A stretch of 64,000 bases of DNA from Okamejei kenojei. Lineage: Eukaryota. The notes beneath the pieces were generated by a model. The model did no database searches, was not told where the DNA came from, and was given only the letters and a program-made list of their open reading frames with translations. Location: contig CM069147.1 of the NCBI GenBank assembly GCA_035221665.1, forward strand, positions 47,244,001 to 47,308,000, read 5' to 3'. The position numbers were made by a program, and so were the translations under genes. The number at the start of each line of letters is the position of its first letter. Within the stretch, counting starts at the first letter, position 1. Below are positions 3,092-62,005 of this stretch, in pieces.

Positions 3092-3149
3092 GCAAGTCTC
3101 TGCACTTCTATCATAAATCTATCATAAATTATTCTGTGTAAAAAAAGAA

Positions 3150-3525
3150 TTACAGATGCTGGTTTAAATCGAAGGTAGACACAAAATGCTGGAGTAGCTC
3201 AGCGGGTGAGGCAGCATCTCTGGAGAGAAGGAATGGGCGACGTTTCGGGTCGAGACCCTTTTTCAGACTGATGTCGGGAGGGGGCGGGACAAAGATAGAA
3301 TGTAATCGGAGACAGTAAGACTAGTGGGAGAACTGGGATGGGGAAGGCGATGGAGAGAGAGGGAGAGCAAGGGCTATCTGAAATTAGAAAAGTCAATGTT
3401 CATACCGCTGGGATGTAAACTACCCAAGTGAAATATGAGGTGCTGTTCCTCCAATTTGCGCTGGGCCTCACTCTGACAATGGAGGAGGCCCAGGACAGAA
3501 AGGTCAGATTGGAAATGGGAGGGGA
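3150..3525 (-). mobile_element. Penelope-like element 3' end / pseudo-LTR
   Basis: Minus strand carries the GIY-YIG tail (EEQHLIFHLGSLHPSGMNIDFSNF) and the terminal repeat seen throughout the window. Confidence 0.8.
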
Positions 3526-11280: not shown

Positions 11281-11424
<144 letters not shown>

Positions 11425-13568: not shown

Positions 13569-14499
13569 TGACCATAATTCTACAAGTAGATTGATATTGA
13601 GATGTTTGTTATGTTGCCTAGATCTGTTTCCCTATGATGAACGATTGTGCAACTCAAATAGGTATTTAGCAGCATTACCAGTTTAATATAGTTTAAAGTG
13701 CACACCAAAGATTGTGAGCAGCAGGATTAAAACCCCTGTCTCACTGTGCGAGTTGGCCCACGAGTGACCCCGAGTTTTCACTCGTGGTGATCACGTAGCG
13801 GGAACGTCGGAACTCGCACGAGCAACTTATCGACTCGTGGCGCTAACGGCAGGTACTCGGGAAACTTGTTAACTCGTGAAAAAAATCAAACATGTTTGAT
13901 TTTTTCCACGAGTCAAATTAACTGTTCAAGTGTAAAATGGAAACATTTTAACTCGTTGCAATAACGTAGTGGCCCCGTGCGTTTATCTTAGTGTCTCGTG
14001 AGTGTACCGTGGGAACTTTAATAATCTGTTCTTTTGCTCGTAAGACTGAACCAAAGATAGACACAAAATGCTGGAGTTTATAACTCAGCGGACCAGGCAG
14101 CATCTCTGGAGAGAAGGAATAGAGTCGAGACCCTTCTTCAGACTTTCCTTCGCTCCAGAGATGCAGCCTGTCCCGCAGAGTTACTCCAGCATTTCGTGTC
14201 TATCTTCGGCCTTTCTGCCACTTGTCCCCGTGGCTTCACTCTGTCTCAATGAACGGCTTAAAGACCTGCCGAAGGGGCAAGTCTGGGGTGGTGGGTGGGA
14301 TGTGTCCACGTGTGATGCTCCATCCACCCCCCCGGGGCCGAGAGTGTGGGATTGGGAACACCGGAGATAGACACACACAATGCTGGAGTAACTCGGCGGG
14401 ACAGGCAGCATCTCTGGAGCGAAGGAATGGGTGGCATTTCGGGTAAGTCTGAAGAAGGGTCTCGACTCTATTCCTTCTCTCCAGAGATGCTGCCATGTC

Positions 14500-15470
14500 C
14501 GCTGAGTTGTGTGTGTGTGTCTCTCTCCCTCTCTGTCTATCTGTGTATCTGTGTGTGTGTCTGCTGTCGGGTCCCGGTGGCCGCTCAAAGTCACCCGAGC
14601 TGCTTGATTCCTCTGANNNNNNNNNNNNNNNNNNNNNNNNNNNNNNNNNNNNNNNNNNNNNNNNNNNNNNNNNNNNNNNNNNNNNNNNNNNNNNNNNNNN
14701 NNNNNNNNNNNNNNNNNNNNNNNNNNNNNNNNNNNNNNNNNNNNNNNNNNNNNNNNNNNNNNNNNNNNNNNNNNNNNNNNNNNNGGCCGCTCAAAGTCAT
14801 CCGAGCTGCCTCATTCCTCTGAAGTNNNNNNNNNNNNNNNNNNNNNNNNNNNNNNNNNNNNNNNNNNNNNNNNNNNNNNNNNNNNNNNNNNNNNNNNNNN
14901 NNNNNNNNNNNNNNNNNNNNNNNNNNNNNNNNNNNNNNNNNNNNNNNNNNNNNNNNNNNNNNGCTCAGTCACCCGCGCTGCTTAATTCCTCTGAAGTGGT
15001 GGCCAGCTGCTGTCTGTGTGTATCTCTATCTGTGTGTGTGTGTGTGTGTGTGTCTCTCTCTCTCCCTCTCTGTCTATCTGTGTGTGTGTGTGTGTGTACT
15101 GTCGGGTCCTGGCGGCCGCTCAGTCACCCGCGCTGCTTAATTCCTCTGAAGTGGTGGCCANNNNNNNNNNNNNNNNNNNNNNNNNNNNNNNNNNNNNNNN
15201 NNNNNNNNNNNNNNNNNNNNNNNNNNNNNNNNNNNNNNNNNNNNNNNNNNNNNNNNNNNNNNNNNNNNNNNNNNNNNNNNNNNNNNNNNNNNNNNNNNNN
15301 NNNNNNNNNNNNNNNNNNNNNNNNNNNNNNGCTCAGTCACCCGCGCTGCTTAATTCCTCTGAAGTGGTGGCCAGCTGCTGTCTGTGTGTATCTCTCTCTC
15401 TCTGTGTGTGTGTGTGTGTGTCTGCTGTCGGGTCCCAACGGCCGCTCAATGTCAGTCACCCGGGCTGCTT
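14500..15470. repeat. Compound ~130-160 bp tandem repeat with (TG)n/(TC)n, interrupted by three N gaps
   Basis: Recurring GCTCAGTCACCCGCGCTGCTTAATTCCTCTGAAGTGGTGGCCA; gaps at 14617-14784, 14826-14962, 15161-15330. Confidence 0.85.
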
Positions 15471-18690: not shown

Positions 18691-20502
18691 TAGTCGTTTA
18701 GTATTTTGTTACATATCCTTTGCATGCAATGACTGCTTGAAGTCTGCGATTCATGGACATCACCAGTCATCTCTGGTGATGCTCTGCCAGGCCTGCATTG
18801 CAGTCATCTTTAGTGTATGCTTGTTTTGGGGGTTGAACCCATTCAGCTTTCTCTTCAGCATATAAAAGACATGCTCAATTGGGTTCAGATCGGGTGATTA
18901 ACTTTGCCACACAAATTAACCATTTTTTAGCTTTGAAAAACGCCTTTGTTGCTTTAACAGTATGTTTGGGATCATTGTCTTGCTGTGCAATGAACCATCG
19001 CCAATGAGTTTTGAGGCATTTGTTTGAACTTGAGCTGATAGGATCTGTCTATTCACTTCAGAATTCATTATGCTACTACCATCAGCAGTTGTATCATCAA
19101 TGAAGATAAGTGAGCCAGTACCTTCAGCCATACATGACCAGGCCATAACACCCCCACCACTGTTTCACAGATGAGATAGTATGCCTTGGATCTTGGGCAG
19201 TTCCTTCTCTCCTACATACTTTGCTTTTGCCATCACTCTGATATAAGTTAATCTTCGTCTCATCTGTCCACAAGACCCTTTTCCAGAACTATGGTTGCTC
19301 TTTTAAGTACTTCTTGGCAAACTGTAATCCGGCCATCCTATTTTTGCGGCTAACCAGTGGTTGGCACCTTGCAGTGTAGCCTCTGTATTTCTGTTTATGA
19401 AGTCTTCTGCGGACAGTGGCCAGTGACAAATCCACACCTGTCTCTTGAAGAGTGTTTCTGATCTGTCGGACAGGTGTTTTTATGGGGGGGGTGGGTGTTC
19501 TTTATAATAGAAAGAATTCTTCTGTCATTATCTGTGGAGGTCTTCCTTGGCCTACCAGTCCCTTTGCGATTAGTAAGCTCACCAGTGCTCCTTTCTTCTT
19601 AATGATGTTCCAAATAGTTGATTTTGGTAAGCCTAAAGTTTGGTTGATGTCTCTAACAGTTTTATTCTTGTTTCTCAGTCTCATAGTGGCTTCTTTGACT
19701 TTCATTGACACAGCTTCGGTCCTCATGTTGATAAACAGCAATAAAAGTTTCCAAAGATGATGGAAAGACTGGAGGAAAGACTTGGTGTTGAGCGCTCTCT
19801 TATACCTGCATTAAGGAGGCAATTAAACACACCTGAGCAATTACAAACACCAGTGAAGCCATGTGTCCCAAACATTATGGTGCCCTGAAATGGGGGAGGG
19901 AACTATGTATAAACACTTCTGTAATTTCTACATGGTGAAACCAAAATATATGAAAATGGCCTTTATTAAAATCTGACAATGTGCACTTTAACCACGTGTG
20001 TTTTTCTATTAAAAATCTCAAATTGTGGAGTACAGAGGCAAATAAATAAATGACGGGTCTTCGTCCCAAACATTATGGACGGTTATGTATCACCCATTTT
20101 CCCTTCCCAAAAAACTTGCAATCATAATATTGGGCCATCTAAACAACACCTGTCCTGCCTAACACCAGCCCCCAACTTCTAAACAACATTCCTCTGTGTA
20201 ATTTGGGCCTACTATCCTTTACCATCTACAACACTTAAACTTGACAGTTCTACTACCGCAGTAGTTGATGAATAATAAGTCTAAATCTGAATTAAAATTG
20301 CTAATGTAGATTGTAATGATCTATTTATCATAGAAGGAAAATAATTATCAATTTGCTTTATTGATAGTTTGGCTTTTAATAAAAAATATTCAAGGAACCA
20401 ATTTCTGAGTTGCTAGCTAACCCTGTTTAATCCAATGGGAATGTTGAAAAAAATGTTTCTTTCCCAGAGAAAAGAATACAGTGTGTTTTAATGTTGCTAC
20501 AG

Positions 20503-23529: not shown

Positions 23530-23880
23530 TTACCTTGTATGACTTGTTTGATGTCAAGTTATGGCAGCTGGTCCCGTGTTACCAGATTTGTTGAATTCCC
23601 TTTAAAGTATGCCATGGTAGAACTTGAAATCACTAGCCTTTGACTTTTATAACGATTGCTTTGCAATGGTATTTGTTAACTTAAAATTGTTGTTAAGCAT
23701 CAACATGAAAAATTATGTGATTAATTTCAGGTTAATGCACACAGAGCATTTATTTTTCTAAATTGTATTCAGAGTATTATGTGTTATAGGTTAAGTCCAA
23801 AAATGGCTAAAATTGACTTTTGCATGCATTTCTAAAGTTTCGTACCAGCATTAAAAAGTTGACTGTTTCATTTACTTTAG

Positions 23881-23967
23881 GAGGTCTTGTTCTTCCCAGC
23901 AATGAAACCAGAGGACAACAAAAAGGAACGTCCTGATGCAACTGAAAATGCACCACCTACAAACTAG
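23881..23967 (+). CDS. KARS1: Lysyl-tRNA synthetase terminal coding exon
   Basis: CTTTAG|EVLFFPAMKPEDNKKERPDATENAPPTN* (TAG 23965-23967). Confidence 0.96.
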   Translation, partial: EVLFFPAMKPEDNKKERPDATENAPPTN

Positions 23968-24282
23968 GAGCCTTGCAATTCAACAAATCATAAAAAGAGA
24001 TTGCATTGCTACATTTAATTTTAGGAAACATGTTATTTCTTCTGGCTGTAGGGAAGACTTTAATCTTCATTCTTGTTGATTTTCAACTGTGCTGACATTT
24101 CACTGTTTTTGGTTTGTAATAATCACCCATTCCTCCAAATCACTTTGTATCAAGATAAAGTAACAAATTATTTGTCAGGTTTAATATCTTTTATACTTGA
24201 GTTTCTGCAAATATCCAAATCTGTACCATATAGACAGCATTTTCTGGTATTACAATATGATAAGACGATATGATGAATCATT

Positions 24283-24288
24283 AATAAA
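24283..24288 (+). terminator. Candidate KARS1 polyadenylation signal
   Basis: AATAAA about 315 nt after the stop codon in AT-rich unique sequence; no transcript evidence. Confidence 0.55.
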
Positions 24289-24770
24289 CAAAGAAGCAAT
24301 GAATTATTCCTAGGAGTAGACTGCAGTCTTTTACATTTATTATACATTTTGTTTCCTTCCAAGGAAGTGGGATAATAACATGGTGTAATATAAGACCTGT
24401 AGGCTTGAATTGCATCATATTCAATTCCTTTAGTGGCCTGATCTTCAGAGGCTAGTGTAGTTTCTTACACTGGCTAGACCTCACTCGGAATATTATTCAA
24501 TTCCGTCACTACACTGTAAAAAAAGAATGTGATTGCAATGTAAAGAGTGCAGAGGAAAGCCATTAGGATGTTGCCTGTATTGGAAGACTTTATATATGGG
24601 GAGGGATTGGATAGGCTGAGCTTGTTTTCCCTGGTGTGAAAGATATTGACAAAGCTGAGACATTATGAGAGTTGATGTTATCTTTCCCATCTTAGGTATA
24701 TCAAAAACAAGAGGTTTGGCTGGGAGGAAGGAGATTTGAGGAGATCCAAGGGTGAGGTTTTATTTTTATA

Positions 24771-25428
24771 CTAGACTAAGTGGGACCCGTTGGGTCCCAT
24801 GTTAACACTGGAGGGCTGGTCCCCCGACGCAATATTCTACCTCTCCACCAATTCCAATATTGGAGGGTGGGGGGGGGGGGCTTTCTGGAGCACTAGTATG
24901 GTTGTTGTGGGCTGAAGGGACTGGTTTCCAGAGGGCTAGTATGGATATTGTGGGCCAAATGGATTCTTGGGGAGGCAGCTCAGTCCCTCAAGCCTGATGT
25001 GCTGGCAGCTCGCTCACGGCTGGTGGGCTGGCAGTTGACATGCGGCTATTCCTTGAAATTCCATTTCAAGCAGGGTGCAAGGCCACCAAATTCAAATGCA
25101 GTTTCCTACCACTTCAAGCAGGGTGCAAGGCCACAAAATTCAAGTGCAGTTTTATACCAGTTCAAGCAGGGTCCAAGGCCACCAAATGCCAAGTGCAGTT
25201 TCATGCCACTTCAAGCAGGGTGCAAGGCCACCAAATTCAAATGCAGTTTCATGCCACTTCAAGCAGGGTGAAACCACCATAAAACCATGCAAAACACCAC
25301 ATAAACACCACACACAGTTCAGTAGACATTCAGTGTGTTCAGTTCATTCACAGCTCAGACAGAATCGTGACCTCTCCTCCATCTTGCAGAGACTGAGCCA
25401 CACCCACACTTCTGGGTTTTATAATCCC

Positions 25429-26193: not shown

Positions 26194-27449
26194 TGGTTAA
26201 TAATCGGAAGAAACTGGAACTGGTGGGTACAATTACTATCTATAAGAGCCATTTAGAAGGAACAGCCAAGGCATAGAAGGTAACGGCGAATATGGGCAAA
26301 TGGAAGTAGTATAGATGGGCAAAAAGATTTAGCATGGTGAACTAAAGAGCCTGCTTTTCTGCTGTAGAAATCTATGTTCAAGGCTAAGGTCAATTCATTA
26401 GTCTGCCCATTTCTGCCCACAGTCTGCCAGATTATTTACTGTTTTAATCAAAGAAATTAACTATTATTCCACCTTACCTTAGCCCTCTGTCCAACATGTC
26501 CCAGTGTGACGTTAATCAAGAAGTAGTGAACTGCATCAGGCAAATTTTCTATTTCAATTAGTGGCTTTCAGTCAGTGAACAAAAACGTTCACTAAATTAA
26601 AATACTATAGAAAACAAAAATATTTAATACAATATCCTGGAAATACTCAGCTGGCCATGCAAGATGGCCTATTTTAACTGTGACTCCTTAATAGAGGCTA
26701 AATAATTTGTGACTAGTTTTGATTCTGCATCGTGGGTCTGCCATTCTAAAGTTGCTACACAATTAAACCTTAATATGGGCGATAATAAATCTTCCCCCCC
26801 CCCCAAAAAAAAGCAGACACAGTGGAGCATCCAAGCTTACTGTATCCAGGATATAGTTAGGTACCATTATCAAGGCAGTGATTTATAGCTAAACTATATG
26901 ACTGTGAGATGGAATTAATACTGCATGGGAAGCACGCTTGGCACTGTACACAGTTCTAGACTTTGGATCAAAGTTGCTTGGACCATGTTAACAGTGCCAA
27001 CATAAACAAACCAAAATGATAGAGGATATGTGGCATAAATTTGGTCAAAAAGAAATATGAAGCACAAGGCTCAGAATGATTAAATAAGACATGGCCTTAA
27101 ATTAAGCAAGAGGGTACTCTTGTGGACAATTAGAAATGTCATTGGGGAATAAGACTACAAAAATACCTAGGCTTTTTATACGTACAAAAAAAGCACAAGG
27201 GTAACCAAGGCGAAGATGTGACCGCTCAACGATAAAGGATGTAGTCAGAGGATGTGGGCGAGGTACTAAATGAGTATAGTAAATTCTCATTTTAATGGAA
27301 CTCTTTATAACAGATTTTGGTTATGGCGGATGGATCTGCCGACCCAACCCCGGATTGCAAGGTGCACCAGCGAGCCTTACTTCACCCACCGTGCAGTCCA
27401 ATGTCGCGGCTCATATTGTAGCCCCTGAGAACAGTAAGTTCTTCAAGGG

Positions 27450-28570
27450 TTACACAAAAGGCTGGAGAAACTCAGCGGGTGCAGCAGCATCTAAGGAGCG
27501 AAGGAGATAGGCGACGTTTCGGGTCAAGACCCTTCTTCAGACTGGTCAGGGATCAGGGAAACGAGAGATATAGACGGTGATGTGGAGAGATAAAGAACAA
27601 TGAATGAAAGATATGCAAAAAAGTATCGGTGATCAAGCGATTGTAAGCTGTTTGTGGTGTGAAAATGAGAAGCTAGTGCGACTAGGGTGGGGGAGGGAGA
27701 TAGAGATAGAGGGAATGCCAGGGCCTGAGGGCTGAGGGAGAGGTGGGAAGGGGAGGAGACAGCAAGGGTTAACAGAATTGAGAAAATTCAATGTTCAAGC
27801 CCAAAGGATGCAGACTCCCCAAGCGGAATATGAGGTGCTGTTCCTCCAACTTGCGGTGTTGCTCACTCTGGCCATGGAGGAGGCCCAGGGGGGACCGAGA
27901 GGTCGGATACGGAATGGGAGGGGGAGTTGAAGTGCTGAGCCACCGGGAGGTCGGGTTTTGGTTTTTGCGGACCGAGCGGAAGTGTTCGGAGAAACGATCG
28001 CCAAGCCTCCGCTTGGTCTCACCGATATAGATCATCTGGCATCTGGAGCAGCGGATGCAGTAGATGAGGTTGGAGGAGGTGTAGGTGAACCTCTGTCAGA
28101 CCTGGAAGGACTGCTTGGGTCCCTGAAAGGAGTGGAGGGGGGAGGTGAAGGGAAAGTGTAGCATTTCTTGCGGTTGCAAGGGAGAAAGTGCCCGGGGAAG
28201 GGGTAGAGCGGGAGGGAAGGGAAGAATTGACAAGGGAGTTGAGGAGGGAGTGGTCTTTGCGGAAGGCAGACAGGGGGGGAGATGGGAAGATGTGGCGAGT
28301 GGAGGGGTCCACGTTGGAGGTGGCGAAACTGGCGGAGGACTATGTGTTGTATTTGCCGGCTGGTGGGGTGAAAGGTGAGGACCAGCGGGACTCTGCTCTG
28401 TTTGCGAGTGGGGGAATGGGGACGAGAGGGCAGTGTTGCGGGGTATGGAGGAGACCCTGGTGCGAGCCTCATCAATAGTGGGGGAGGGGAATCCCCGTTC
28501 TCTGAAGAATGAGGCGATTTGTGATGACCTGGTGTGGAACACCTCATCCTGGGAGCAGATGCGGCGGTAT
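27450..28570 (-). mobile_element. Penelope-like retroelement (GIY-YIG endonuclease and pseudo-LTR)
   Basis: IYIGETKRRLGDRFSEHFRSVR; RVPLVLTFHPTS; terminal repeat with CTGAAGA..GAAAC core. Confidence 0.9.
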
Positions 28571-28689
28571 CAAAAGGTATGTTCTTTTATTTCTGAGGAT
28601 ATGAACTCTGGTTCTAAACTCCTACTAGTGAAAACATCCTCTCCAGCGAGTACTGGCCCAGTACCATCAAACATTCATCATATGTTAAC

Positions 28690-30529: not shown

Positions 30530-33500
30530 CTGGGGGAGGTGGGACCAGTACAAACAGGACAGTCTGCACCTGGGCTGGAATGGAACCAATGTCCTTGGGG
30601 GAGTGTTTGCTAGTGCTGTCGGGGAGGATTTAAACTAATGTGGCAGGGGGATGGGTACAAGAGCAGAGAGGCAGGTGGGTGTAAAATGAGGGTAGAAGCA
30701 ATAGGTAGCAAGGTGAAAAGTAAAAGTGGCAGGCATACAAAACCAGGGCAAAAATCAAAAAGGGCCACTTTTCAACATAATTGTATAAGGGGTAAGAGCG
30801 TTGTAAAAACAAGCCTGAAGGCTTTGTGTCTCAATGCAAGGAGTATTCGTAATAAGGTGGATGAGTTGAATGTGAGATAGCTATTAATGATTATGATATA
30901 GTTGGGATCATGGAGACATGGCTCCAGGGTGACGTAGGCTGGGAGCTAAACATCCAGGGATATTCAATATTCAGGAGGGATAGAGAGAAAGGAAAAGGAG
31001 GTGGGGTAGCGTTGCGGGTTAGAGAGGAGATTAATGCAATGGAAAGGAAGGACATTAGCTTGGAGGATGTGGAGTCGGTATGGGTAGAGCTGCGGAACAC
31101 TAAGGGGCAGAAAACACTGGTGAGTGTTGTGTACAGGCCACCTAACAGTAGTAGTGAAGCTGGGGATGGTATCAAACTGGAAATTAGAAATGCGTGCGAC
31201 AAAGGCAAAACAATTATAATGAGTGACTTCAATCTACATATAGATTGGGTGAATCAAATTGGCAGGGGTGCTGAGGAAGAGGATTTTTTGGAATGTATGC
31301 GGGATAGTTATCTAAATCAACATGTAGAGGAACCAATGAGAGAGCAGGCTATTTTTAGACTGGTGTTTTTTGAGTAATGAGGAAGGGGTAGTTAGCAGTC
31401 TTGTTGTACGTGCCCCCTTGGGCAAGAGTGACCATAATATGGTTGAGTTCTTCATTAAGATGGAGAGTGACATTGTTAATTCAGAAACAATGGTTCTGAA
31501 CTTAAAGAACGGTAACTTTGAGGGCATGAGACGTGAATTGGCCAAGATAGACTGGCAATTAATTCTAAAAGGGTTGACGGTGGATATACAATGGAAGACA
31601 TTTAAAGACTTCATGGATGAACTACAAAAATTGTTCATCCCAGTTTGGCAAAAGAATAAATCAGGGAAGGTAGTGCGTCCGTAACAAGGGAAATCAGGGA
31701 TAGTATCAAAGCAAAGGATGATGCGTACAAAGTAGCCAGAAAAAGCAGCATACCAGAGGACTGGGAGAAATTCAGGGACCAGCAGAGGAGGACAAAGGGC
31801 TTAATTAGGAAAGGAAAAATAGATTATGAAAGAAAACTGGCAGGGAACATAAAAACTGACTGCAAAAGTTTTTATAGATATGTGAAGAGAAAGAGATTAG
31901 TAAAACAAATGTAGGTCCCTTGCAGTCAGAAACAGGTGAGTTGATCATGGGGAACAAAGATATGGCGGACCAATTGAATAACTTTGGAGACTTTGGTTCC
32001 GTCTTCACTAAGGAAGACATAAATAATCTGCCGGAAATAGCAGGGGACCGCGGGACAAAGGAGGAAACGAGTGAAATCCAGGTTAGTTGGGAAGTGGTGT
32101 TGGGTGAATTGAATGGATTAAAGGCCGATAAATCCCCAGGGCCAGATAGGCTGCATCCCAGCGTACTTAAGGAAGTAGCTCTGGAAATAGTGGATGCATT
32201 AGTGATAATCTTTCAAAACTCTTTAGAATCTGGAGTAGTTCCTGAGGATTGGCGGGTAGCAAACGTAACCCCTCTTTTTAAGAAGGGAGGGAGAGAGAAA
32301 ATGGGGAATTACAGACCAGTTAGTCTAACATCGGTAGTGGGGAAACTGCTAGAGTCAGTTATTAAAGATGGGAAAGCAGCACATTTGGAAAGTGGTGAAA
32401 TCATTGGACAAAGTCAGCATGGATTTACGAAAGGTAAATCATGTCTGACGAATCTTGTGGAATTTTTCGAGGATGTAACTAGTAGCGTGGATAAGGGAGA
32501 ACCAGTGGATGTGGTGTATCTGGGCTTCCAGAAGGCTTTCGACAAGGTCCCATATAAGAGATTAGTATACAAACTTAAAGCATATGGCATTGGGGGTTCA
32601 GTATTGATGTGGATAGAGAACTGGCTGGCAAACAGGAAGCAAAGAGTAGGAGTAAACGGATCCTTTTCACAATGGCAGGCAGTGACTAGTGGGGTACCGC
32701 AAGGCTCAGTTATGGGACCCCAGCTATTTGCAATATATATTAATGATCTGGATGAGGGAATTGAAGGCAATATCAACAAGTTTGCAGATGACACCAAGCT
32801 GGGGGGCTGTGTTAGCTGTGAGGAGGATGCTAGGAGACTGCAAGGTGACTTGGATAGGCTGGGTGAGTGGGCAAATGTTTGGCAGATGCAGTATAATGTG
32901 GATTAATGTGAGGTTATGTGGCAAAAACAGGAAAGCAGACTATTATCTAAATGGTGGCCGATTAGGAAAAGGGGAGATGCAGCGAGACCTGGGTGTCATG
33001 GTACACCAGTCATTGAAAGTAGGCATGCATGTGCAGCAGGCAGTGAAGAAAGCGAATGGTATGTTAGCTTTCATAGGAAAAGGATTTGAGTATAGGAGCA
33101 GGGAAGTTCTACTTCAGTTGTTCAGGGTCTTGGTGAGACCATACCTGGAGTATTGCGTACAGTTTTGGTCTCCAAATCTGAGGAAGGACATTCTTGCCAT
33201 AGAGGGAGTGCAGAGAAGGTTCACCAGACTGATTCCTGGGATGTCAGGACTGTCTTATGAAGAAAGACTGGAGAGACTCGGTTTATACTCTCTAGAATTT
33301 AGGAGATTGAGGGTGGATCTTATAGAAACTTACAAAATTCTTCAGGGTTTGGACAGGCTAGATGCAGGAAAATTGTTCCCGATGTTGGGAAGTCCAGGAC
33401 AAGGGGTCACAGCTTAAGGATAAGGGGGAAATCCTTAAAGACCGAGATGAGAAAGACTTTTTTCACACAGAGTGGTGAGTCTCTGGAACTCTCTGCCAGA

Positions 33501-34639: not shown

Positions 34640-35262
34640 TTGCACCTCCTCCAACCTCATCAACTGTATCTGTTGTTCCAGGTATGGACTCCTGTATATC
34701 AGCGAGACCAAAAGCAGGCTCGTCGATCATTTCGCTGAACACCTCCGCTCAGTGCGCCTAAACCTAAACACTTTAACTCCCCCTCCCATTCCCACACTGA
34801 CCTTTATGTCCTGGGCCTCCTCCATTGTCAGTGAGCGCAAATTGATGGAACAGCACCTCAGATATTTCGCTTGGGCAGCTTGCACCCCAGCGGTATGAAC
34901 ATTGACTTCTCTAACTTCAAGTAACCCTTGCTTTCCCTTTCTCTCCATCCCAACCCCTTCCCAGTTCTCTGACCAGTCTTACTGTCTCCGACTACATTTT
35001 ATCTGGAAGGTAGACACAAAATGCTGGAGTAATTCAGCGGGACAGATACATTTTATCTGCCTGCTTTGTTGTTACCTACTCCCAGCTAATGATCTATTCT
35101 ACATTTTCTTTGATCTTCATTCCCTTTGTCCTGTTTTCACACCTTACACTTCCTTATCTATGTACCTCTCCCCCCTGACATCAGTCTGAAGAATGTCCTC
35201 GACCCAAAATGTCACCAGAGATGCTGCCTGTCCTGCTGAGTTACTCCAGCATTTTGTGTCTA
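34640..35262 (+). mobile_element. Penelope-like GIY-YIG fragment and pseudo-LTR
   Basis: CTSSNLINCICCSRYGLLYISETKSRLVDHFAEH. Confidence 0.85.
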
Positions 35263-36049
35263 TATTCTATTCTAAGTTCTGTTATGAGAAGAGATTACTT
35301 GGTGTGGAGCGAGGTGAACATTCAAGGTTGTGGTCAAAGCCTCCTTAAGAAATGCAACTTTATCACCCTCTCATGGGATCCCCGCGGTCAAAACCAATCA
35401 CAGAAGAGCATTCGGGATTACATAGAGCATTTAGGGAGACACAGATGCCCTGTGTAAGCGACCATCTGACTAATTACCTACAAGCCATCTTCTGCCCTGT
35501 GTGTGAAAGGCTATGCAGTTCCCATGTTGGGTGTTGGCCCCATTAATCACCACAGAACACACGGAACTGAAGTGGAATAACAAAACATTCTCGATTCTAA
35601 GTATCTGCTTATAAGAAGTATCCTATTGACAAACAGTCTTACAAAGCCATCCACTGGGTTCCTTGTAGTTTAACGGGCTACAACTGAACTAGCCAAAGAA
35701 TCAGGAGGCAAAGAGAAATGCGCCTCACATCTAGACAGAAACACTCAGCAGGCCTCGGGCAATGTCTGTGGCGAACAGAAAGAGTCCATGTTCCAAGTGG
35801 ACCACCTATCATTGCAACCCTGTCAAAACTTCCAACGAGCAGTCGCCTCCTGGAACACTTCGCTCTCCACTTGTGATGTTATTTCCAGCCCAGCCAGCAG
35901 CAAAGATTATAGTCTTTGGTCAGCAGATGCTGGTATCTGGAGCAACGCAGAGACTGCTGGGGGTACTCGGGGGGGGGTCGAGCAGCATCTGTGGAGGGAA
36001 ATGAACAGGTGGAAACCCTGCACCACCCCACACAACGTCGATTAATCCA

Positions 36050-36755: not shown

Positions 36756-36923
36756 GTAAAGTGTGTTCCTGTGGAGTTTTTATTCGGACACGTTTATGAA
36801 TTAATCCATGTATTTCTGTCAACATAAACAGTAAACTGAGATGATCTAAGTCCGAACGCATGCTTTCCAAAGATTAAATAATCACAAAAGCAAAAGCGCA
36901 CATTTGGAGTAGAGTGTACTGGT

Positions 36924-36974: not shown

Positions 36975-38295
36975 CAGCTGAATCTCCCAGTTGCTAATCA
37001 TTTTAACTCCCATTCCCAATCCAACCTTCCCTCCGCCACTCCCTGGTTAATTCATCCCTTCCCACCCAAACCACCCCCTCCCCGCCCAGGTACCTTCCCC
37101 AGCAACTGCAGAAGATGCAACACCTGTCCCTATACTCTCCTCCCTCGACTCTGTCCAGGGCCCACGACAGTCCTTTAAGGTTAGGCAGAGGTTCACTTGC
37201 ACCTCCTCCAACCTCATCTACTGTTTTGTTCAAGATGTGGGCTCTTGTACATCGGCGAGACCAAACGTAGACTGGGCGATCGTTTCGCGGAACACCATCG
37301 CTCAGCCCACCTGAACCTACCTGATCTCCCGGTTGCTGGGCACTTTAATTTACCATTCCTACACAGACCTTTCTGTCCTCGGTCTACTCCATTGTCAGAG
37401 TGAGGCTAAACGCAAATTGGAGAAACATCATCTCATATTTGCATGGGCAGCTAACAGCCAGTGGTATGAATATTGATTTCTCTCGGCAGCCCCGGCATTC
37501 CTCTCTCCCTTCTCCCACCAATGTCGCACTAGCTTCTCATTTTCACCCTACAAACAGCTTTCAATGGTCTATTTCCTTTATCGTCGTTGCTTTTTTGCAT
37601 ATCTTTCCTTCATTGTTCTTTATCTCTCCACATCACCATCTATATATCTCGTTTCCCTTATCCAAAACCAGTTTGAAGAAGGGTCTTGACCAGAAACGTC
37701 ACCTATTCCAGCTCTACAGAGAAGCTGACTGTCCTGCTGAGTTACTCCAGCTTTTTGTGCCTATCTTCGGTTTAAACCAGCATCTGCAGTTCCTTCTTAC
37801 CCAATCCAACCTTTCCTTCCTGGGTCTTCTCCATTGCCAGAGTGAAGCCATGAGCAAACTGGACGAAAATCACCTCGTATTCCTCTGAGGTAATTTGCAA
37901 TCCAATGGTATAAATACTGTATTCTCCAATTTTAGCTAATACCCCCACTTTTGTCCCCTGTCTTCCCTGTGCCCCACATTTGTGTGCATAAATTTCTCCT
38001 AATATCCTGTTCCCCATAACCTTACATATATACATCCCTCTGGACTTTCATTCCACTTTTTATCTGATGGCCTTTTGTCCCTCTTTCATCTCTAACCTTT
38101 GCCAACCTAACTGCTAATTAACCCCCTTCACCTGTTTCCACCTATCACTTGCCAGAGTTTGTCGTCCCCACCACTTTCCCAGCTTTCTCCGTGACTATAA
38201 TCTGTCTGAAGAACCGTTCTGACCCGACCCAAAAATGTTGCCTGGCCATGTCCTGCAGAGATGATGCATGATCTGCTGAATTACTGCAGCACTTT
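36975..38295 (+). mobile_element. Penelope-like elements (nested fragments)
   Basis: CSRCGLLYIGETKRRLGDRFAEH; two pseudo-LTR copies (~37670-37800, ~38200-38295). Confidence 0.85.
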
Positions 38296-39099
38296 TTTTT
38301 TTGCTTTTGATAGAATGCCATTAAACTAGAAAGGGCAAAAAAGATTCATGACTCTAAAGAGTTTAAATTATATGGGTCTTATTTTCCCTGGTGTATGTGT
38401 TGAAGGGTGATAATCTGAGGGGTTTAACTAAGACATCTGGTCACAATCTTTTCCACAGGGTAGGGGAATGTAAAACTAGAGGGCATATGCCTAAGGTGAG
38501 AGGGGACAGATTTAAAAGGGACACGAGAGGCTTATTTTTCCACACAGCAGGTAGTGGATGAGGTGGTGAAACAGTGCTTCCACTTTCAAGGAAATTACCC
38601 AAAATTCGGGAAATTCTGGTTGTCTTCCGGTAATTTTAGGGAAATGAAATAATTTCGGGGAATTTCCGCATCTGGCCCGCGAAGGTAATACACACAGCAC
38701 TGCCAGTTTGGTGCTCAAAGGTTTTAAACAGAACGCTGTCAGTTTAACACGTGGGAATTTAAAGGAAGAGCTGTCGGCTTCAGCGCTATGGGTTCTAAAT
38801 GTAGCGTTACCGGCTGGAGGGCTATGGGCTTTAAACATAGCGCTTTGGCCACAATGCTATGAGTCACAGACCGTTCGGGAAAATTCTCGTATAACAACGA
38901 GTCTTTGGAATTCTCTTTCTCAGTGGAAGTTGAGCCTTTGATTATTTTTCAGGCAGTGGTAGAATTCTACTACAATCCCTGTAGTAAGTCGGCACACTTG
39001 ATATTTGCAGTGGGATTGGAGTGGTGAAAGGTAGGGTAGGTTTGTCATCGGGGTCACCAGGTGGGCACCCTCCTTCTTTGACGTTTCATTGATAAGCCC

Positions 39100-41100: not shown

Positions 41101-42880
41101 AACGAGAGAGAGAAAAAAAAGTTCAGTGTGTATATATACACAGACATATATTTATATACACACACACATATTCTTACACACATTCTTACACAGATTTGTC
41201 TGAACTCAGCCTTCTCTGCTGCCAGGGTGATGCCAAACGCAAACTGGAGGAACAGCACCTCCTATTCGTGCTGGTGAATTTTCCAATTTCAGGTAACCCT
41301 CATTGGATGTGCTCCTTTCTCCTTCTGATACAACCCAACCAAGCCTCACATTACACAGTTTCCCCTTCCCCACGTGGTTGCATCTGCCTGTCACCTACAC
41401 ACTGTACCTATTGTGTCTCCTATCCCAATCCCCAACTGGTTTCATCTGCACATTGGCCAACGTAAAGATATGGAGGTATGGTGAGCTGGTTGTCAGTGTG
41501 TATGTGTGAATTGATAGCTTTCAGGTGACTTTGCCAGGGCCATGAATTATGCCAACCATGACACTCTTTCTGACTCCGCTCTGACATTGGAGTCCAGAGG
41601 GAGTTTGGAGCCAGACCACAATGTAAATGTGCTGAGTAATCTGGGCACAGGTTAATTCTTGCAAGTTGAAAGGCTCCAAGGAAAATAGGCAAGTTTCAGG
41701 TAACACAAAATTGTAAGTTAATTGAATGAAGCATATTTAACTGTTTGAGGATTTTCCTGTTTTTTTTTTAACAGTTTGCTTGTTTCAAGATACACTTAAG
41801 TATGTACTTTTAATTGGCTTTTGAGTATTTATGAACACGTATTCACAAGCATGGAAAATCTTCTGACAGTTTTGACAGCTGTTGAGCACATGACTGGGTT
41901 AGCTTGCTGCCACGGCATTGTTAGGGATGTGGGGTGATTTCATGGTGGTAATGCTGTCCAAACCTCAAAGGAGGAACTGACTTTAGAGAACAAGCTGCCA
42001 TTGTTAAATGTGATATTGTCAGAATGGCACAGCACTCACCAACTAAAATAATCATCTTGCTAGGTCCAGACTGTAAGTTATGAAACACATCTGTAGATGA
42101 AAATTATGAGAGACTGAGAATATACTTTTGGGGTAACCAATGAAAATAATGCAAGAGCTATGGTTGGATAGATCAGAATGAAATCATTTTGGCGATTAGC
42201 TGGAAGGATGTTGGAGGAGGATAGAGTCGTTAACTCTTGCAAAGACCGTTCACAGATTAAAAAGAACGAGGAGGGATAAATTATCTATCGTATGAACAGC
42301 ATCGAAAAGGGATTTCATTTTCATGGCAGGACAATCCTGTCTGTGGCGATTCAACCATTCAGCAAGGATTTATGAAGTGCAGCACATTCATTTTGCTTGC
42401 AGTGAAAAAGGATATCGGGGTAGTAGTTCATAAGGATGGAGGGATGAGGAGGGAAGGGAGGTGGGATTAAATGGATTTAAAAGAAGGGAGCTCTGTTCTT
42501 GAGGAAAAGGAAACAGTAATAACGAAGAAGAGGACAGCTGGGAAATTAGTTGCTCGTGGATGCATGGAGGGAGGAGTAAGAGTACCTTTTGACATGATGA
42601 ACAGTTCAAAGGTGGGGCAATATGGGGAATGATGAAGCTCTGAGGACAGGATTGAAAGGGACATGGATGGAGAAAGATACGTAGAGATACGACTGAGGTG
42701 ACATAATGAAGAAATGTGAGGTCAGGGCACCAAGGGAAGTGAGACATGCAAAATGCAGAGCTTGAAGATGGAAAACAGCCTGGTGATAACATTTACTTCA
42801 CCCTAACTCTTTGTAGTGTGTTATCTTTGTATCCGTTTGTCACAGTGATTTTCATCTTGTTCCTCTTCGGACTTTCAGCA

Positions 42881-43049
42881 ATGTGGACAGCAGATGAAAT
42901 TGCCAGTATGTGCTATGCACATTATTCTACCAAGCTACCAAAGAAAGGTCTGCCAAATCCTGGACAAGAATGGACTCTGCTTGCCGCTGTGGTAAAAGTT
43001 GAGGAGCAACCAAACAGGCAATCAGTTTGCAACAGTGAGAGCAATGATG
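42881..43049 (+). CDS. ADAT1: tRNA-specific adenosine deaminase 1, first coding exon
   Basis: TTTCAG|CA-ATG; [42 protein letters not shown]... matches the vertebrate ADAT1 N-terminus; donor G|GTGAGA. Confidence 0.96.
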
Positions 43050-43284
43050 GTGAGAGAGCAGAATATTTCTGAAACCTGACATAATTAATCTTTCACTGAT
43101 GTGCATTTTAAACAGTGAGAACTTTGACATCCAATAAATGTAAATAGGCTGATTTGTTTTGTATTTCCAACGAGAAATTGCTGCTTTTAATTTTACGGGC
43201 CACAGCTGACCTTGGAGGCTTTGCTTTCTGGCCTATCCCACAGCTTGTGACACTGGGTTGGGTAAACAACAAGTCCTTCTGATC

Positions 43285-44175
43285 GTAGACAAAAATGCTG
43301 GGGAAACTCAGCTGGTGAGGCAGCATCTATGGAGTGAAGGAAATAGGCGATTTTCGGGTTGAGACCCTTCTTCAAACTGGGGTGGGGGGGCGCGAAGATG
43401 AAAGGAAGAGGCGGAGACAGTGGGCTGTGGGAGAGCTTGGAAGGGAAGGGGAAAGAGGGAGAAAGGAGGGACTACCTGAAATTGGAAAAGTTAATGTTCA
43501 TACCGCTGGGGTGTAAACTACCCAAGCGAAATATGAGGTGCTGCTCCTCCAATTTACGGTGGGACTCACTCAGGCCATCGAGGAGGCCCAGAACAGAAAG
43601 GTCAGATTCAGAATGGGAGGGGGAGTTGAAGTGCTGAGCCACCGGGAGATCAGGTTGGTTATTGCGAACTGAGCGGAGGTGTTGGACAAAGCGATCGCCA
43701 AGCCTATGCTTGGTCTCGCCGATGTAGAGCAGCTAACACCTAGAGCAGCGGATGCAATAGATGAGGTTGGACTTTATCCTTGGATGGAGTCAAGGGGGTA
43801 GGTAAAGGGACAAGTGTAGCATTCCTTGCGGTTCCACGAGAACGTACTAAGAGAGGGGGTGGTTTGGGTGGGAAGGGACGAATTGACCAGGGAGTTACGG
43901 AGGGAGCGAAAGCCGAAAGGTGAGGAGATGGGAAGATGTGGCCAGTGGTGGGATCCCGCTGGAGGTGGCGGAAATGTCGGAGCATTATCTGTTGTATGTG
44001 ATGGCTGGTAGAGTGGAAGGTGAGGACACGGGGGACTCTGCCCTTGTTACGAGTGGGGGGATGGGGAGTGAGAGCAGAGTTACGGGGTATAGAAGCGACC
44101 TTGGTGAGAGCCTTATAGATAGTAGAAGGGGGGAACCCCCGTTCCCTACAGAATCAGGACATCTTCGATGCCTTC
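43285..44175 (-). mobile_element. Penelope-like element fragment
   Basis: LRHFRHLQRDPTTGHIFPSP; GIY-YIG remnants; pseudo-LTR at 43285-43380. Confidence 0.85.
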
Positions 44176-48256: not shown

Positions 48257-49214
48257 TGGTGATGCCCAGTACTGTTTTAAAAACAAATATAGATCAATAT
48301 TTCCACACCCCATGAGTAAATTGAAAACCAATTAATTTGTTCATTTTCATTGTGTAGTACACCATTAAATATTGGTTTCTTTCTCTCAGAATAGGGACTG
48401 GATAAGTGACTGGAGAAAAGGGTGACTTTTTCCCCTTGAAAAGGAAGTAAAGCAGAAATGTTCTTACATGAGCCATATTTGTATTTGTTTTAATTTTTCC
48501 TGCCTGGATGAAACAAAATTGTCATTTCTTGGAACCTCCTACATTGGAAATAAGTTCCAATGGTTCCCGCTTCGTTTCAGTTACAATGTAATCAGAAGGG
48601 AATATGATGCTTGCTAATTCTTTGGTAAATTCAATGTGTGAAACTGTAATGTCTTTAATATTCCATCCTGAAATAGTTTTGTCAGCGTATTAATTTCTGT
48701 CCTTAAGAATAAGCAAACACCATATTCGCTTCTGACTTCAGTGCTCTTTTGCAATTGAAGAGAAGTGGGAACAGAATTTTGACTCTGAGATTTATAGGTT
48801 CCTTTCAAAACTCCCCTTGCACTGATGTCTGTACCATTAATAATTTTTTGATGAGAAATATTTAAAAGTTCATCTGGGAAAAATGGTAACCAATGCCTGA
48901 TTTAAAGAATATGTAAATTTATGCAAAATTACTGATAATTAACGGTAAGCATACAATCGCATCCAAAAGCTTAACATCCTGTCTAGATGTGCTGTTGTGG
49001 CAATTGCATTGCCAATGAGTTGACGGATTTTATCTATCAAACGCATTACAATTCTACATAACAATTCTACATGGTTCAGAGTTCGCAGCAGCAACTTGTA
49101 CTCCGTAATTGTTATGTAAGGGAAGCAGCTACACAATTGTCGGGTTTGAGATTATTGATGTCCAGTGCACAGAACATCCGTTTTCATTTAGAAACCAACA
49201 ATGGTTTACAAAAG

Positions 49215-51512
49215 AAGTGGATTAGCTCAGCGGGTCAGGCAGCATCTCTGGAGAACATGGATAAATAATGTTTTGGGTTATGATCCTTCTTCAGCATGAT
49301 TGGAAGGGGATAGGGAAAAGAAAGGTGGAAGAGAATGGGGCAGGACAAAGCCTGGCAGGTTGAAGCAAGTGAGGAGGGCTTTTAGTTGGACAAAGGCCAG
49401 AAATGATAAGGCAAGGATTTAAGAGCTGTGCATTGTAAAGCGAGATGAAAAAATGAAGTGGGAAGGAGATGGAAGAAATAGGTACGAGTCAAGGTAGAGC
49501 ATTAGGGAGGGGGTTGGAGGTTATATGGGGAAAGAGGGGGAGGGTTACAGTGTTGCCTAAAATTGGAAAATTCAATTTTCATACCGTTGGGTAGTACGCT
49601 ATCCAAGCAGAATATGAGGTGTTGTTCCTCTAGTTTGCTTGTGACCACACTCTGTCAATGTTGGAGGCCCAGGACAGAAATGTTAGTGTGGGAATGGGAA
49701 GAGGAGTTAAAGTGGTTAGCAAACGCAGATCCAACAGGCCTTGGCGTTAGTGTTTGCTAAAATGATCGCCAGATCTATATTTTGTCACAGCGATGAAGAG
49801 GAGGCCATACCAGGAATACCGGATGCAGTAAATGAGGTATACAAGGTACACGTGAACCTCTCTATCACCTAGAAGAATTGCTGAGTTCCCTGGAGATGGG
49901 AGGAGGTTTAGGGACAGGTGTTACATCTCCTGTGGTTGCAAGGGAAAGTACCTGGGGACAGGGTGGTTTGGGTGGGAAGGGACGAATGAACCAAGAGGTT
50001 GTTGAGGTTGTGGTCCCTCCAGACTGCAATGTCGAAGGATGATGTGTTATATGCGGAGTGAGAGCAGGACTATGGAACACAGAGGAGGCGCATCTATAAC
50101 AGAATGGTTGAAATCTTGTTTGCTACAGCATCTACAGCATGTCCTAGAATGGAAAGCCTCAACTTGGAAGCAGATGCGGCAGCCGTCGAAAGACTTTAGA
50201 GATACAGCACGGAAGCAAGCCCTTTGGCCCACTGAGTCCGCGACGACCAGCGATCACCTGTAGACTAGCACTATCCTACACTAGCGACAATTTACAATTT
50301 CACTAAAAGCCAATTAATCTACAAACCTGTGCATCCTTGGAGTGCGGGAGGAAACCGGAGCAACCAGAACAACCAGAGAAAACCCACGCAGTCATGGAGC
50401 ACATACAGACTCCGTACAGACAGCAGGCGTAGTCAGGATCGAACCCAGGTCTCCGGTGTTGTAAGGCAACAACTCTACTGCTGTGCCGCAGTGCCACCCA
50501 AGGATAGTGGATCGTGCCACTGTACATTAGCATCAAGGTCTGTTCGATGTAATCAGCAAAAAGCAGGCATAGCTGGGACCCTTGCGAGTGCCCATGGCTA
50601 CTCCTTTAACTTGGAAAAAGTGAAAGGAGTCAAAGGAGAAGTTGTTGAGGGTGAGAACAAGTTCTGCCAGGCGGAAGAGTGTGTTGGAGGGAAGTTGATT
50701 GGGTCTCTGTTCAAGAAAGAACAGGAGGGCTTTGACCCCTTGCTGTTGGGGGGGTGGAGATGTTAAGGGACTGAATGAGGCAATGCAGGCAGGAAACTGA
50801 ATGTTATTGAAGAGTTCAAGGGTGTGTAAGATGTCTTGGATGTTACTTTGTGTAATCTAATCTACTGCATCTGGTGTTCCCGATGTGGTCTCCCGTACAT
50901 TGGTGAGACCAAGGTTAGACTCAGCGATCTTTTCATCACGCATTTATGTTTGGTCAAGGTCTGCGCGATCTGCCAGTTGGTATCGATTTTAACTTCTCTT
51001 TCCATTTCCAAACCGATCTTTCAGTCCTTGGCCCTCTCCATTGCCAGAGTGTGTCCACACGCAAACCGACGAAACAATACCTCGTATTCCGCTTGGGTAG
51101 CTTACAACCCAATGGCATGAGCATTGAATTATCCAATTTTAGGTACCTACATAAACCTCCCCCTCTCCCTTCTTTCCCCATGTAAACCCCCATTGTGCCA
51201 ACTGGACTCATACCTACCTCTCCCCTCCCCTTTCCCTTCAACTAACATTCCTTCGTCTAGCTTCACAATTTGCAGCTCTTCAATCGTTTTGTCTTTTCAT
51301 CTCTGGCCTTTTTGTGCAACCATCTGCCTATCAAAAAACTCTCCTCACGTATCAACTTAATACCAGCCCAACTTTCTTTTGCCCTTCCAGCTTTCTTTCC
51401 CTCTTTTAAAATCGGTCTGAAGGAGGATCCCGACTCCAAACATCATCCATCCTTGTTCTCCAAAGAGACTGGCTGTCCCATTGAATTACTCCAACACTTT
51501 GTCTTCATCTGA
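49215..51512. mobile_element. Penelope-like element with inverted 5' segment, split by a SINE
   Basis: Minus: pseudo-LTR and GIY-YIG (49215-50180), RT motif LAELVLTLNNFSF..QVKGVAMGT (50520-50830); plus: inverted GIY-YIG and pseudo-LTR (50840-51512). Confidence 0.82.
50195..50499 (-). mobile_element. HE1-like V-SINE
   Basis: tRNA-like head, V-domain (GGAGTTTG..TGGGTTTTCTC..CTCCGGTTTCCTCCC), CR1-like tail. Confidence 0.82.
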
Positions 51513-57069: not shown

Positions 57070-57589
57070 GTACTGAGTTTGATTTTTTTAAATACTTATG
57101 CAAATGCTCCTCAGAATTTCAGAAAAACATACCAGAAATGGGATTGGCTGCTTAGTTTCTCGTGCCTGCTTTGCTATTCACTAAGATCATGGCAGCCTTT
57201 CTCCTCAATGCCTCTTTCCCGGATGGCGTCCTAATAACTGTCTATTGTCTAACAGGTTTCAAGACCATTCCCCCAGCTCCAACTGCAAATAAGTCTAAAG
57301 AGGTTCATAGGGTGGGGTTTTTAACTGATACAGGACCACAGTTCTTTAACCTTGAATGGGCAGCTAGAAGTGCCTTTAGTCACTTTAGCCTCAGCAGGTC
57401 GGGCGGCATCTCTGGAGAATATGGATGGTTGACGATTCGAGTCAATACAGAATAGAGTCTGAAGACGGGTCACCTGTTCTTTTTCTCCAATATGCTGCCT
57501 GAGCTGCTGAGTTACTCCAACATTTTGTGTCTATCTTCGGTGTAAACCAGTATCTGCAGTTCCTTCCTACACATTTACTGCTGGGGAAT

Positions 57590-61471: not shown

Positions 61472-61801
61472 GTACAAATTACAATTTTTTAATTAGCTTA
61501 AATAATGTCATTAATATGCATATGCAATGGCATTTCTTACTTTTCCCCACATATATGTTCTGTACATTTAAATATATATATTACCGAATAATAAGCTAAT
61601 GGTATTTTGAGTGGTCGAAAAGATGAGCAGACTGATAGGCAGACCAGATGAATGTAAGATGAAATTTAATACAGAAATATGTGGTGCTGAATTTTGAGAA
61701 GGATAACAATATTGCTTATAACTCATCGAAAAATATCCCATGAAACTGTTTGATAAGGAATTTAAACAGGAGTACATGCCAAGCCAAGGAAAATACTGGG
61801 C

Positions 61802-62005
61802 ATAGACACAAAATGCTCTAATAACTCAGCGTGTCAGGCAGCATCTCTGGAGAGAAAGAATGGGTGACGTTTCAGGTCGAGACCCTTCTTCAGACTAGAG
61901 TCGGAAAAGGGAAAAGCATTATTTATCTCCAGAAATGCTGCCTGAGTTACTCCAGTATTTTTTGTCTATCGTCGGTTTAAAGCAGCATCTGCAGTTCCTT
62001 CCTGT
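61802..62005. mobile_element. Fold-back element made of two inverted Penelope-like terminal repeats
   Basis: AGACACAAAATGCT..GCAGCATCTCTGGAG.. arm and its reverse complement; hammerhead-like core on minus strand at 61866-61893. Confidence 0.75.

What the first reader, a model, noticed from the sequence alone, without database searches (positions are those of the whole stretch)
27505..27546. Minimal hammerhead-ribozyme-like core in Penelope pseudo-LTRs, many copies in both genes
Seen on minus strand 27540-27513: CTGAAGA-A-GGGTC(TT)GACCC-GAAAC-GTC, i.e. CUGANGA box, one extra A, stem II, GAAA, a palindromic ACGT mini-stem III and a GUC cleavage triplet. Related copies lie at ~3239-3266(-), 35186(+), 37673(+), 43349-43376(-), 51416(+) and 61866-61893(-). 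Established: Penelope-like elements carry minimal type I hammerheads that often cleave as dimers. Caveat: stem I here looks only ~2 bp, so activity is uncertain. The best-preserved cores are antisense to the genes, while sense copies look degenerate, which could reflect selection against pre-mRNA cleavage (small sample).
Basis: partly seen in the sequence, partly recalled or inferred. Interest (0 to 1): 0.7.

Follow-up and report, generated by a model that had tools for sequence, protein, structure and literature searches.

The report
Skate Penelope ends carrying idle hammerheads
A tiny self-cutting-RNA motif of an already known kind sits in the end repeat of a very common jumping gene of a skate; the copies scattered through the genome are likely idle, and they show no preference for either strand inside genes.

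Summary
The motif at 27513-27540(-) is real. It matches the published minimal hammerhead of Penelope-like elements and lies about 230 nt after a GIY-YIG reading frame of a Neptune-type element in a skate. The genome holds 53,971 exact cores.

This copy is not in a KARS1 intron: it lies 3 kb past that gene's last exon and 15 kb before the ADAT1 start codon. Only 2 of 19 window copies keep an intact core. In 1.70 Mb of gene bodies the copies split 372 sense to 372 antisense, and intact cores 38 to 40. Catalytic bases decay like the flanks (6.3% vs 7.4%), and stem II shows no excess of compensatory change. Stem I has 2 bp and the predicted fold hides the GUC site. Cleavage was not testable.

One oddity: copy 5' ends cluster 2-4 nt before CUGA (13 of 30 young copies) and none lies at the cut site, which fits run-off from an uncut RNA start. 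The scan has reported this family and this oddity before, in this and other genomes.

The parts
27513..27540 (-). Minimal hammerhead core: CUGAAGA 27540-27534, extra A 27533, stem II 27532-27521 (4 bp + CUUG loop), GAAA 27520-27517, ACGU palindrome 27517-27514, GUC 27515-27513; predicted cut between 27513 and 27512
   Evidence: sequence; fits consensus in PMC4209133
27541..27542 (-). 5' arm of stem I (G, U); pairs with 27511-27512 (C, G) as G-C and U.G; no further pairing seen
27446..27512 (-). 3' part of the pseudo-LTR, ending at the first of two common 3' ends; this copy lacks the optional ~35-nt tail
27543..27768 (-). 3' UTR of the element, pyrimidine-rich next to the core
27769..28586 (-). 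Frameshifted, 5'-truncated end of the element's ORF: C-x4-C-x2-C linker and GIY-YIG endonuclease (Pfam PF01541, E 2.6e-5 for 27772-28095); upstream limit approximate
3141..3524 (-). Copy in a KARS1 intron, antisense; core 3239-3266 has G8>A (predicted dead)
14054..14205 (.). Head-to-head pair of broken end fragments in a KARS1 intron
14367..14508 (.). Second head-to-head pair of broken end fragments in a KARS1 intron
35166..35281 (+). Degenerate copy (G12>A, stem II broken) between KARS1 and the ADAT1 coding start
37028..37798 (+). Copy with ORF remnant; core 37673-37700 has C3>U and a broken 10.1-11.1 pair
38187..38296 (+). Old copy, boxes present but stem II and palindrome broken
43277..44044 (-). 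Copy in an ADAT1 intron, antisense; core has C3>U and no palindrome
49202..49325 (-).
51395..51512 (+). Old degenerate sense copy in an ADAT1 intron
57390..57568 (.). Head-to-head pair of broken fragments in an ADAT1 intron
61800..62003 (.). Head-to-head pair in an ADAT1 intron; the minus-strand arm has the only other intact core, 61866-61893 (G.U at 10.1-11.1)
23879..24308 (+). Last exon of KARS1 (context; places the focal copy outside this gene)
   Evidence: spliced contigs; Pfam tRNA-synt_2 on earlier exons
42870..43048 (+). First coding exon of ADAT1 (context)

Best explanation
The motif is the minimal hammerhead carried in the end repeat of a very high-copy Penelope-like retrotransposon of a skate; it likely cuts only weakly, as a dimer or with help from the element's own protein, and the scattered genomic copies are likely idle passengers. 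Shown: the sequence, the element anatomy, the copy number, neutral-rate decay, the absence of strand bias, and where copies begin and end. Inferred: tandem elements are transcribed from the upstream end repeat; reverse transcription starts at one of two sites about 65 and 100 nt downstream of the cut site, on RNA that is mostly uncut (or religated); most products are short end fragments, often joined head to head; after insertion they mutate freely because a lone core does not cut host pre-mRNA at a rate that selection sees. Untested: cleavage of any kind.
For: RT + GIY-YIG ORF, 3' UTR and core lie in order in 4 of 4 long copies, 95-98% alike. A ~4-kb tandem element has 233-nt direct repeats, 99% identical, each with the core (L242). 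The motif has the extra base after A9, G10.1-C11.1 and the palindromic 15.2-16.2 of the published consensus (PMC4209133). That paper saw no monomer cleavage and low dimer cleavage for such motifs; PMC11167929 found the Anolis PLE hammerhead protein-assisted and dispensable for insertion in vitro. No strand bias in 35 gene segments, 1,698,600 bases: 372:372 all, 38:40 intact, and 38 intact cores sit sense in gene bodies. Same-strand intact neighbours within 3 kb: 6 sense, 5 antisense. Non-CpG catalytic positions differ from the majority base in 221 of 3510 cells (6.3%), flanks in 816 of 11046 (7.4%); CpG sites 21-28% in both. Predicted pairing probability: stem I at most 0.03, stem II 0.23 in the focal copy and 0.04-0.05 in the two common forms; an alternative hairpin pairs over the GUC site. 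0 of 30 young copies begin at the cut site; 4 of 653 in the larger set.
Against: The two big master-level changes keep the fold: a subfamily of 5,266 exact copies has U.G for U-A in stem II with a UUCG loop, and stem I alternates U-A and U.G (174 vs 100 of 331), so masters may be under selection for an active ribozyme. The strictest classes lean antisense (exact 28-mer 9:19 in the first 1.56 Mb; 13:19 in the full set; strict class 21:27), and the interval for the sense fraction of intact cores is 0.37-0.60, so a modest depletion is not excluded. ViennaRNA ignores the non-canonical core and Mg2+, so it understates the active fold. Cleavage followed by circularisation would also leave no 5' ends at the cut site.
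Confidence: 0.8

Rival explanations
1. The cores are active enough in host pre-mRNA that sense-strand intact copies are purged from introns.
For: Inside the window the one intronic intact core is antisense. The strict classes lean antisense: 21:27 and 13:19.
Against: No class is significant. Intact 38:40 (p=0.91); intact vs broken by strand, odds ratio 0.87, p=0.61; a 22-position control downstream leans the same way, 54:61. Solo copies without an inverted partner are 175:176, intact 21:24. Decay is neutral.
Confidence: 0.08
2. The motif has lost ribozyme function even in the master elements and is kept for another role, such as promoter sequence, a protein-binding site or the joining point for inverted copies.
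For: Stem I is only 2 bp. There is no excess of compensatory pairs within the family. Of 367 copies changed at both partners of one stem II pair, 75 of the first 100 listed are an A.A mismatch and 16 are compensatory (hand count; non-partner control 167), which points to a small amplified variant with a broken stem. One subfamily has GUU at the cut site. The downstream flank is as conserved as the core.
Against: Both catalytic boxes, G10.1-C11.1 and the palindrome are kept in all large subfamilies seen. Published PLE motifs with 2-bp helix I or GUU exist. The Anolis motif looked inactive until protein was added.
Confidence: 0.12

Closest known systems
Minimal hammerheads (min-HHR) of metazoan PLE pseudo-LTRs, Cervera and De la Pena 2014 (PMC4209133; read: main text parts 1-2 of 4, supplement file 2 part 2 of 3, term search of file 2; file 1 not searched)
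   Same: CUGANGA + extra base, G10.1-C11.1, GAAA-C-G-U-H with no loop 3, place in the PLE end repeat, most copies solo and truncated. The nearest rows have a 2-bp helix I (Culex, Drosophila virilis).
   Different: Stem II is shorter (4 bp + tetraloop against the usual 5-8 bp) and stem I contains U.G in this subfamily. Copy number is far higher: 53,971 exact cores against about 4,000 in coelacanth and 9,000 in Xenopus. No shark, skate, Callorhinchus or Leucoraja entry in file 2.
Poseidon element PAc of Anolis, Frangieh et al. 2024 (PMC11167929; read: parts 1-2 of 4)
   Same: Hammerhead in the end repeat; two 3' ends about 35 nt apart (tail); no sign of ends at the cut site.
   Different: Here the ORF starts after the tail rather than inside the hammerhead, and the protein has a cysteine linker of Neptune type. 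No biochemistry exists for the skate element.
Endonuclease-bearing PLEs, Neptune/Nematis clades (Craig et al. 2021, PMC8557442, passages; Arkhipova et al. 2013, PMC3846280, passages)
   Same: RT, CX2-5CxxC linker, C-terminal GIY-YIG; partial tandems; head-to-head inverted end repeats with palindromic junctions; optional tail.
   Different: Neptune versus Nematis was not resolved by a tree. The short fragments outnumber long copies many times over and share one 5' edge.
Non-LTR retrozymes (bioRxiv 10.64898/2026.07.22.740005; read: part 1 of 5 and passages)
   Same: Non-coding, PLE-derived, type-I hammerhead; reported in one chondrichthyan.
   Different: Retrozymes are head-to-tail tandem arrays. 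These copies are solo or head to head (159 head-to-head pairs, 22 tail-to-tail).

Membership tests
PLE minimal hammerhead (min-HHR) | CUGANGA and GAAA boxes, NUH cut site | tested here: met
   focal copy intact; 53,971 exact cores
PLE minimal hammerhead (min-HHR) | Extra base between positions 9 and 10.1; G10.1-C11.1 pair | tested here: met
   A at 27533; G-C in 241 of 345 copies, G.U in 56
PLE minimal hammerhead (min-HHR) | Palindromic 15.2-16.2 allowing a dimer | tested here: met
   ACGU at 27517-27514; CG in 174 of 350 copies, the rest mostly CpG decay
PLE minimal hammerhead (min-HHR) | Helix I of 2-6 bp and helix II | tested here: met
   2 bp and 4 bp, at the low end of the published rows
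PLE minimal hammerhead (min-HHR) | Covariation in the stems | tested here: inconclusive
   One-sided U-A to U.G changes between subfamilies. No excess of double compensatory changes except 10.1-11.1 (12 vs 5.2 expected, confounded by CpG decay). One variant breaks stem II.
PLE minimal hammerhead (min-HHR) | Self-cleavage after NUH as dimer or with protein | not testable with these tools
   only contig-level runs were served; they cannot show RNA ends or strand
Endonuclease-bearing Penelope-like element | Single ORF with RT and C-terminal GIY-YIG | tested here: met
   RVT_1 (E 7e-7, at the cut-off) and GIY-YIG in one frame of 559 aa and 466 aa; the three near-full copies have broken frames
Endonuclease-bearing Penelope-like element | Pseudo-LTR by partial tandem, inverted 5' copy, optional tail | tested here: met
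   L242 direct 233 nt, L241 inverted; two 3' ends
Neptune clade | CX2-5CxxC linker between RT and endonuclease | tested here: met
   C-x4-C-x2-C in P0121; definition from PMC8557442, where Nematis also has a linker motif
Neptune clade | RT phylogeny with reference elements | not tested
   the 105 longer homologues returned carry no clade names
Non-LTR retrozyme | Head-to-tail tandem array with a hammerhead in each unit | tested here: not met
   same-strand intact neighbours within 500 nt: 1 pair among 70 intact cores
Canonical hammerhead (Rfam models) | Covariance-model match | tested here: not met
   no hammerhead family among 23 hits at E<=10

The most novel reading that the evidence does not exclude
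The element's RNA starts 2-4 nt in front of the hammerhead, at an initiator-like YYANWYY site, so the 2-bp stem I is all that the RNA's 5' end allows. Internal priming in the 5' end repeat then runs off this start, like a retroviral strong-stop product, and makes roughly a million ~100-130-nt ribozyme-tipped insertions; pairs of these join head to head at the self-complementary sequence that spans the start. Skate genomes would be a very large natural record of the unknown steps of Penelope insertion.
Probability: 0.4. Interest if true: 0.45.

Novelty: new member of a known kind. Interest (0 to 1): 0.2.

Why it matters
As a motif it is ordinary: PLE minimal hammerheads have been known since 2014, and this adds a skate family. 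Two points have modest value. First, a direct test shows that intact cores are tolerated on the sense strand of introns, so a lone core is unlikely to cut host pre-mRNA efficiently. Second, the copy number is an order of magnitude above published cases and the 5' edge is sharp, which makes the open question of where PLE RNA starts, and whether the ribozyme acts before insertion, testable in this lineage.

Tried and rejected
Rfam scan: no hammerhead model hit; the motif is below what those models detect.

RNA evidence for cleavage or circles: all 24 runs were contigs. Laying them mapped host exons but cannot show ends, strand or level, and the 'go back' joints at repeats are uninformative.

ADAT1 transcription start: not located. 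One low-depth contig at 36085-36264 is only a hint.

Strand bias: a first 9:19 lean for the exact 28-mer weakened to 13:19 with more sequence and was not seen in broader intact classes.

Divergent hammerhead families with other stems: the first 100 of 979 hits to a relaxed pattern looked like decayed copies of the same family.

Cleaved 3' product as the usual template: rejected, since 5' ends do not pile up at the cut site.

A 3' splice site at CAG|U as the cause of the 5' edge: less likely. Short copies keep GU upstream of CUGA and abut target-site duplications rather than a shared exon, and copies bearing the pyrimidine tract split 12:14 by strand.

Lunse et al. 2017 (dimer cleavage) was not held; I know it only from its citation in PMC6765202 (passages). 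A logistic regression was not run because the module was missing.

Full report
1. Observation. The minus strand 27540-27513 carries the 28-nt motif as described. With up to 3 mismatches it occurs 4 times in the window and never in 100 shuffles. In the window's genome the pattern with a free 2-nt loop centre occurs 27,185 times forward and 26,786 times reverse, 0 for the reversed control. A profile built from window and locus copies finds 19 fragments in the window. Rfam reports no hammerhead at E<=10.

2. Host context. ADAT1 exon 55228-55962 is 91% identical to a Rhinoraja protein and 78% or less to other rays and sharks, so the host is likely a skate (inference). KARS1 (Pfam tRNA-synt_2) is on the plus strand and ends with exon 23879-~24308, joined by a GT..AG splice in 4 of 4 runs. 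ADAT1, also plus, has coding exons from 42881 to at least 63437. The focal copy therefore lies 3 kb past KARS1 and 15 kb before the ADAT1 start codon. ADAT1's 5' UTR was not mapped. Scoring the 19 fragments, only 27513(-) and 61866(-) have both boxes, a 4-bp stem II and the ACGT palindrome.

3. The element. A GIY-YIG frame ends at 27769 on the same strand, about 230 nt before the core. Four long relatives, 95-98% alike, show RT, a C-x4-C-x2-C linker, GIY-YIG, 3' UTR and core in that order. The linker fits the Neptune type described in PMC8557442 (passages); no tree was built. Of 14 loci fetched for the upstream part, 3 extended more than 1.5 kb. One of them (L242) is a ~4-kb partial tandem with 233-nt direct repeats at 99% identity, a core in each, and the ORF starting after the tail; another (L241) has an inverted 5' repeat; all three have broken frames. 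This is standard PLE anatomy (PMC3846280, passages).

4. Fit to known ribozymes. Cervera and De la Pena (PMC4209133; main text parts 1-2, supplement file 2 part 2) list an extra base after A9, G10.1-C11.1 and a palindromic 15.2-16.2 as hallmarks, and all are met. They saw no monomer cleavage and low multimer cleavage. Frangieh et al. (PMC11167929, parts 1-2) found the Anolis motif active only with protein, not needed for insertion in vitro, and with no RNA-seq ends at the cut site. The skate motif is at the weak end: stem II 4 bp, stem I 2 bp. Folding gives z about +0.6 for the 42-nt region. Stem II pairing probability is 0.23 in the focal copy and 0.04-0.05 in the two common forms, stem I at most 0.03, and the drawn dimer (-12.7 or -6.7 kcal/mol) lies above the best cofold (-21.5). 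In the common forms the preferred hairpin pairs stem II bases with the cut-site region. These energies omit the catalytic core and Mg2+.

5. Strand-bias test. Gene spans of known strand were taken from Pfam exon hits (spectrin, fn3, myosin head) and fetched. Segments include exons, and one 80-kb segment lies between two same-strand spectrin clusters and is assumed to be one gene. First set, 29 segments, 1,559,200 bases: 346 sense, 343 antisense; intact 32:38; exact 28-mer 9:19. Full set, 35 segments, 1,698,600 bases: 372:372; boxes intact 85:77; with stem II and palindrome 38:40 (p=0.91, sense fraction 0.37-0.60); with stem I and GUC 21:27 (p=0.47); exact 13:19; intact versus broken odds ratio 0.87, p=0.61; downstream control 54:61. 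Removing copies with an inverted partner gives 175:176, intact 21:24. A strong purge is excluded; a depletion of up to about a third is not. Scaling 744 copies per 1.70 Mb gives roughly 1.2 million fragments and over 100,000 intact cores in the genome (extrapolation from gene bodies).

6. Selection on the motif. Among 351 copies covering both boxes, non-CpG catalytic positions differ in 221 of 3510 cells (6.3%) and flanks in 816 of 11046 (7.4%); CpG positions 21-28% in both. Inserted copies decay neutrally. Compensatory double changes are at chance level for 8 of 9 pairs; the exception is 10.1-11.1 (12 vs 5.2), which involves a CpG. At master level two changes keep pairing: a UUCG-loop, U.G, GUU subfamily with 5,266 exact copies and U-A/U.G in stem I. 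Against this, 367 copies are changed at both partners of the second stem II pair; in the first 100 listed I counted 75 A.A mismatches, 16 compensatory pairs and 9 others (non-partner control 167; single change 611). This suggests a small amplified variant with a broken stem.

7. Where copies begin. 338 of 689 copies have an opposite-strand neighbour within 150 nt: 159 head-to-head and 22 tail-to-tail pairs. Of 653 assigned 5' ends, 201 fall within 5 nt before the C of CUGA, 4 at the cut site and 14 within 2 nt of it (only four reference copies were used, and inverted arms and other subfamilies inflate the peak). In 30 young loci chosen by downstream sequence alone, 13 begin 2-4 nt before CUGA, 5 at +2, 8 extend into the 3' UTR, 4 elsewhere, and 0 at the cut site (some are two arms of one insertion). 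Several short copies have target-site duplications. So cleaved 3' products are not the usual template, though cleavage plus religation is not excluded. The sequence at the edge fits the initiator consensus YYANWYY (recalled), and PMC3846280 notes an Inr-like site in a rotifer pLTR. RT stalling or endonuclease cutting are alternatives.

8. Literature and earlier notes. Searches for hammerhead ribozyme + cartilaginous fish + retrotransposon and for a PLE hammerhead strand-bias test returned 0 papers; a search on pLTR truncation with start sites returned only PMC8557442. Subscription papers, supplement file 1 of PMC4209133 and the bioRxiv supplements were not seen. The scan itself has noted this family many times, 60 fitting notes in this genome, including the 5'-edge clustering. 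I reached my reading before opening these notes and do not count them as support.

9. Verdict. A real, known kind of motif in a new host lineage; the proposed antisense bias is not supported; activity is probably weak and context-dependent. Interest 0.2.

Noticed in passing
G000, pattern; L221-L226: Second subfamily with a UUCG tetraloop, U.G closing pair and GUU cut site, 5,266 exact copies.
   Followed up: partly
L062 oriented 3' end; window 3141-3269(-); model positions 87-94 and 141-148: An 8-bp long-range stem pairs the repeat body with the optional tail, and a hairpin lies just before the first 3' end; a candidate structure for the two RT start sites.
   Followed up: partly
L242:4734-4756: Right after the tail there is a splice-donor-like site overlapping the likely ATG of the element's ORF; a 5'-UTR intron as in D. 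virilis Penelope was not tested.
   Followed up: no
window 36085-36800: GC- and CpG-rich stretch with a 39-nt tandem repeat (about 12 offsets listed) and a low-depth unique contig at 36085-36264; possible ADAT1 promoter or first exon.
   Followed up: partly
window 11408-12641, 30865-33417: CR1-like LINE remnants (label recalled from the ORF sequences), the second about 3 kb long.
   Followed up: no
window 18700-19810 (-): Frameshifted Tc1-like transposase remnant in a KARS1 intron (label recalled).
   Followed up: no
window 58585-60333 (+): L1/Tx1-like ORF2 remnant in an ADAT1 intron (label recalled).
   Followed up: no
window 25045-25270, 45905-46264, 46243-46436: Tandem repeats of 48, 30 and 41 nt; the 48- and 41-nt units share sequence.
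   Followed up: no
window 14389-14510 and 14082-14182: Head-to-head Penelope end pairs form long hairpins that give weak, spurious microRNA-family hits in Rfam.
   Followed up: yes
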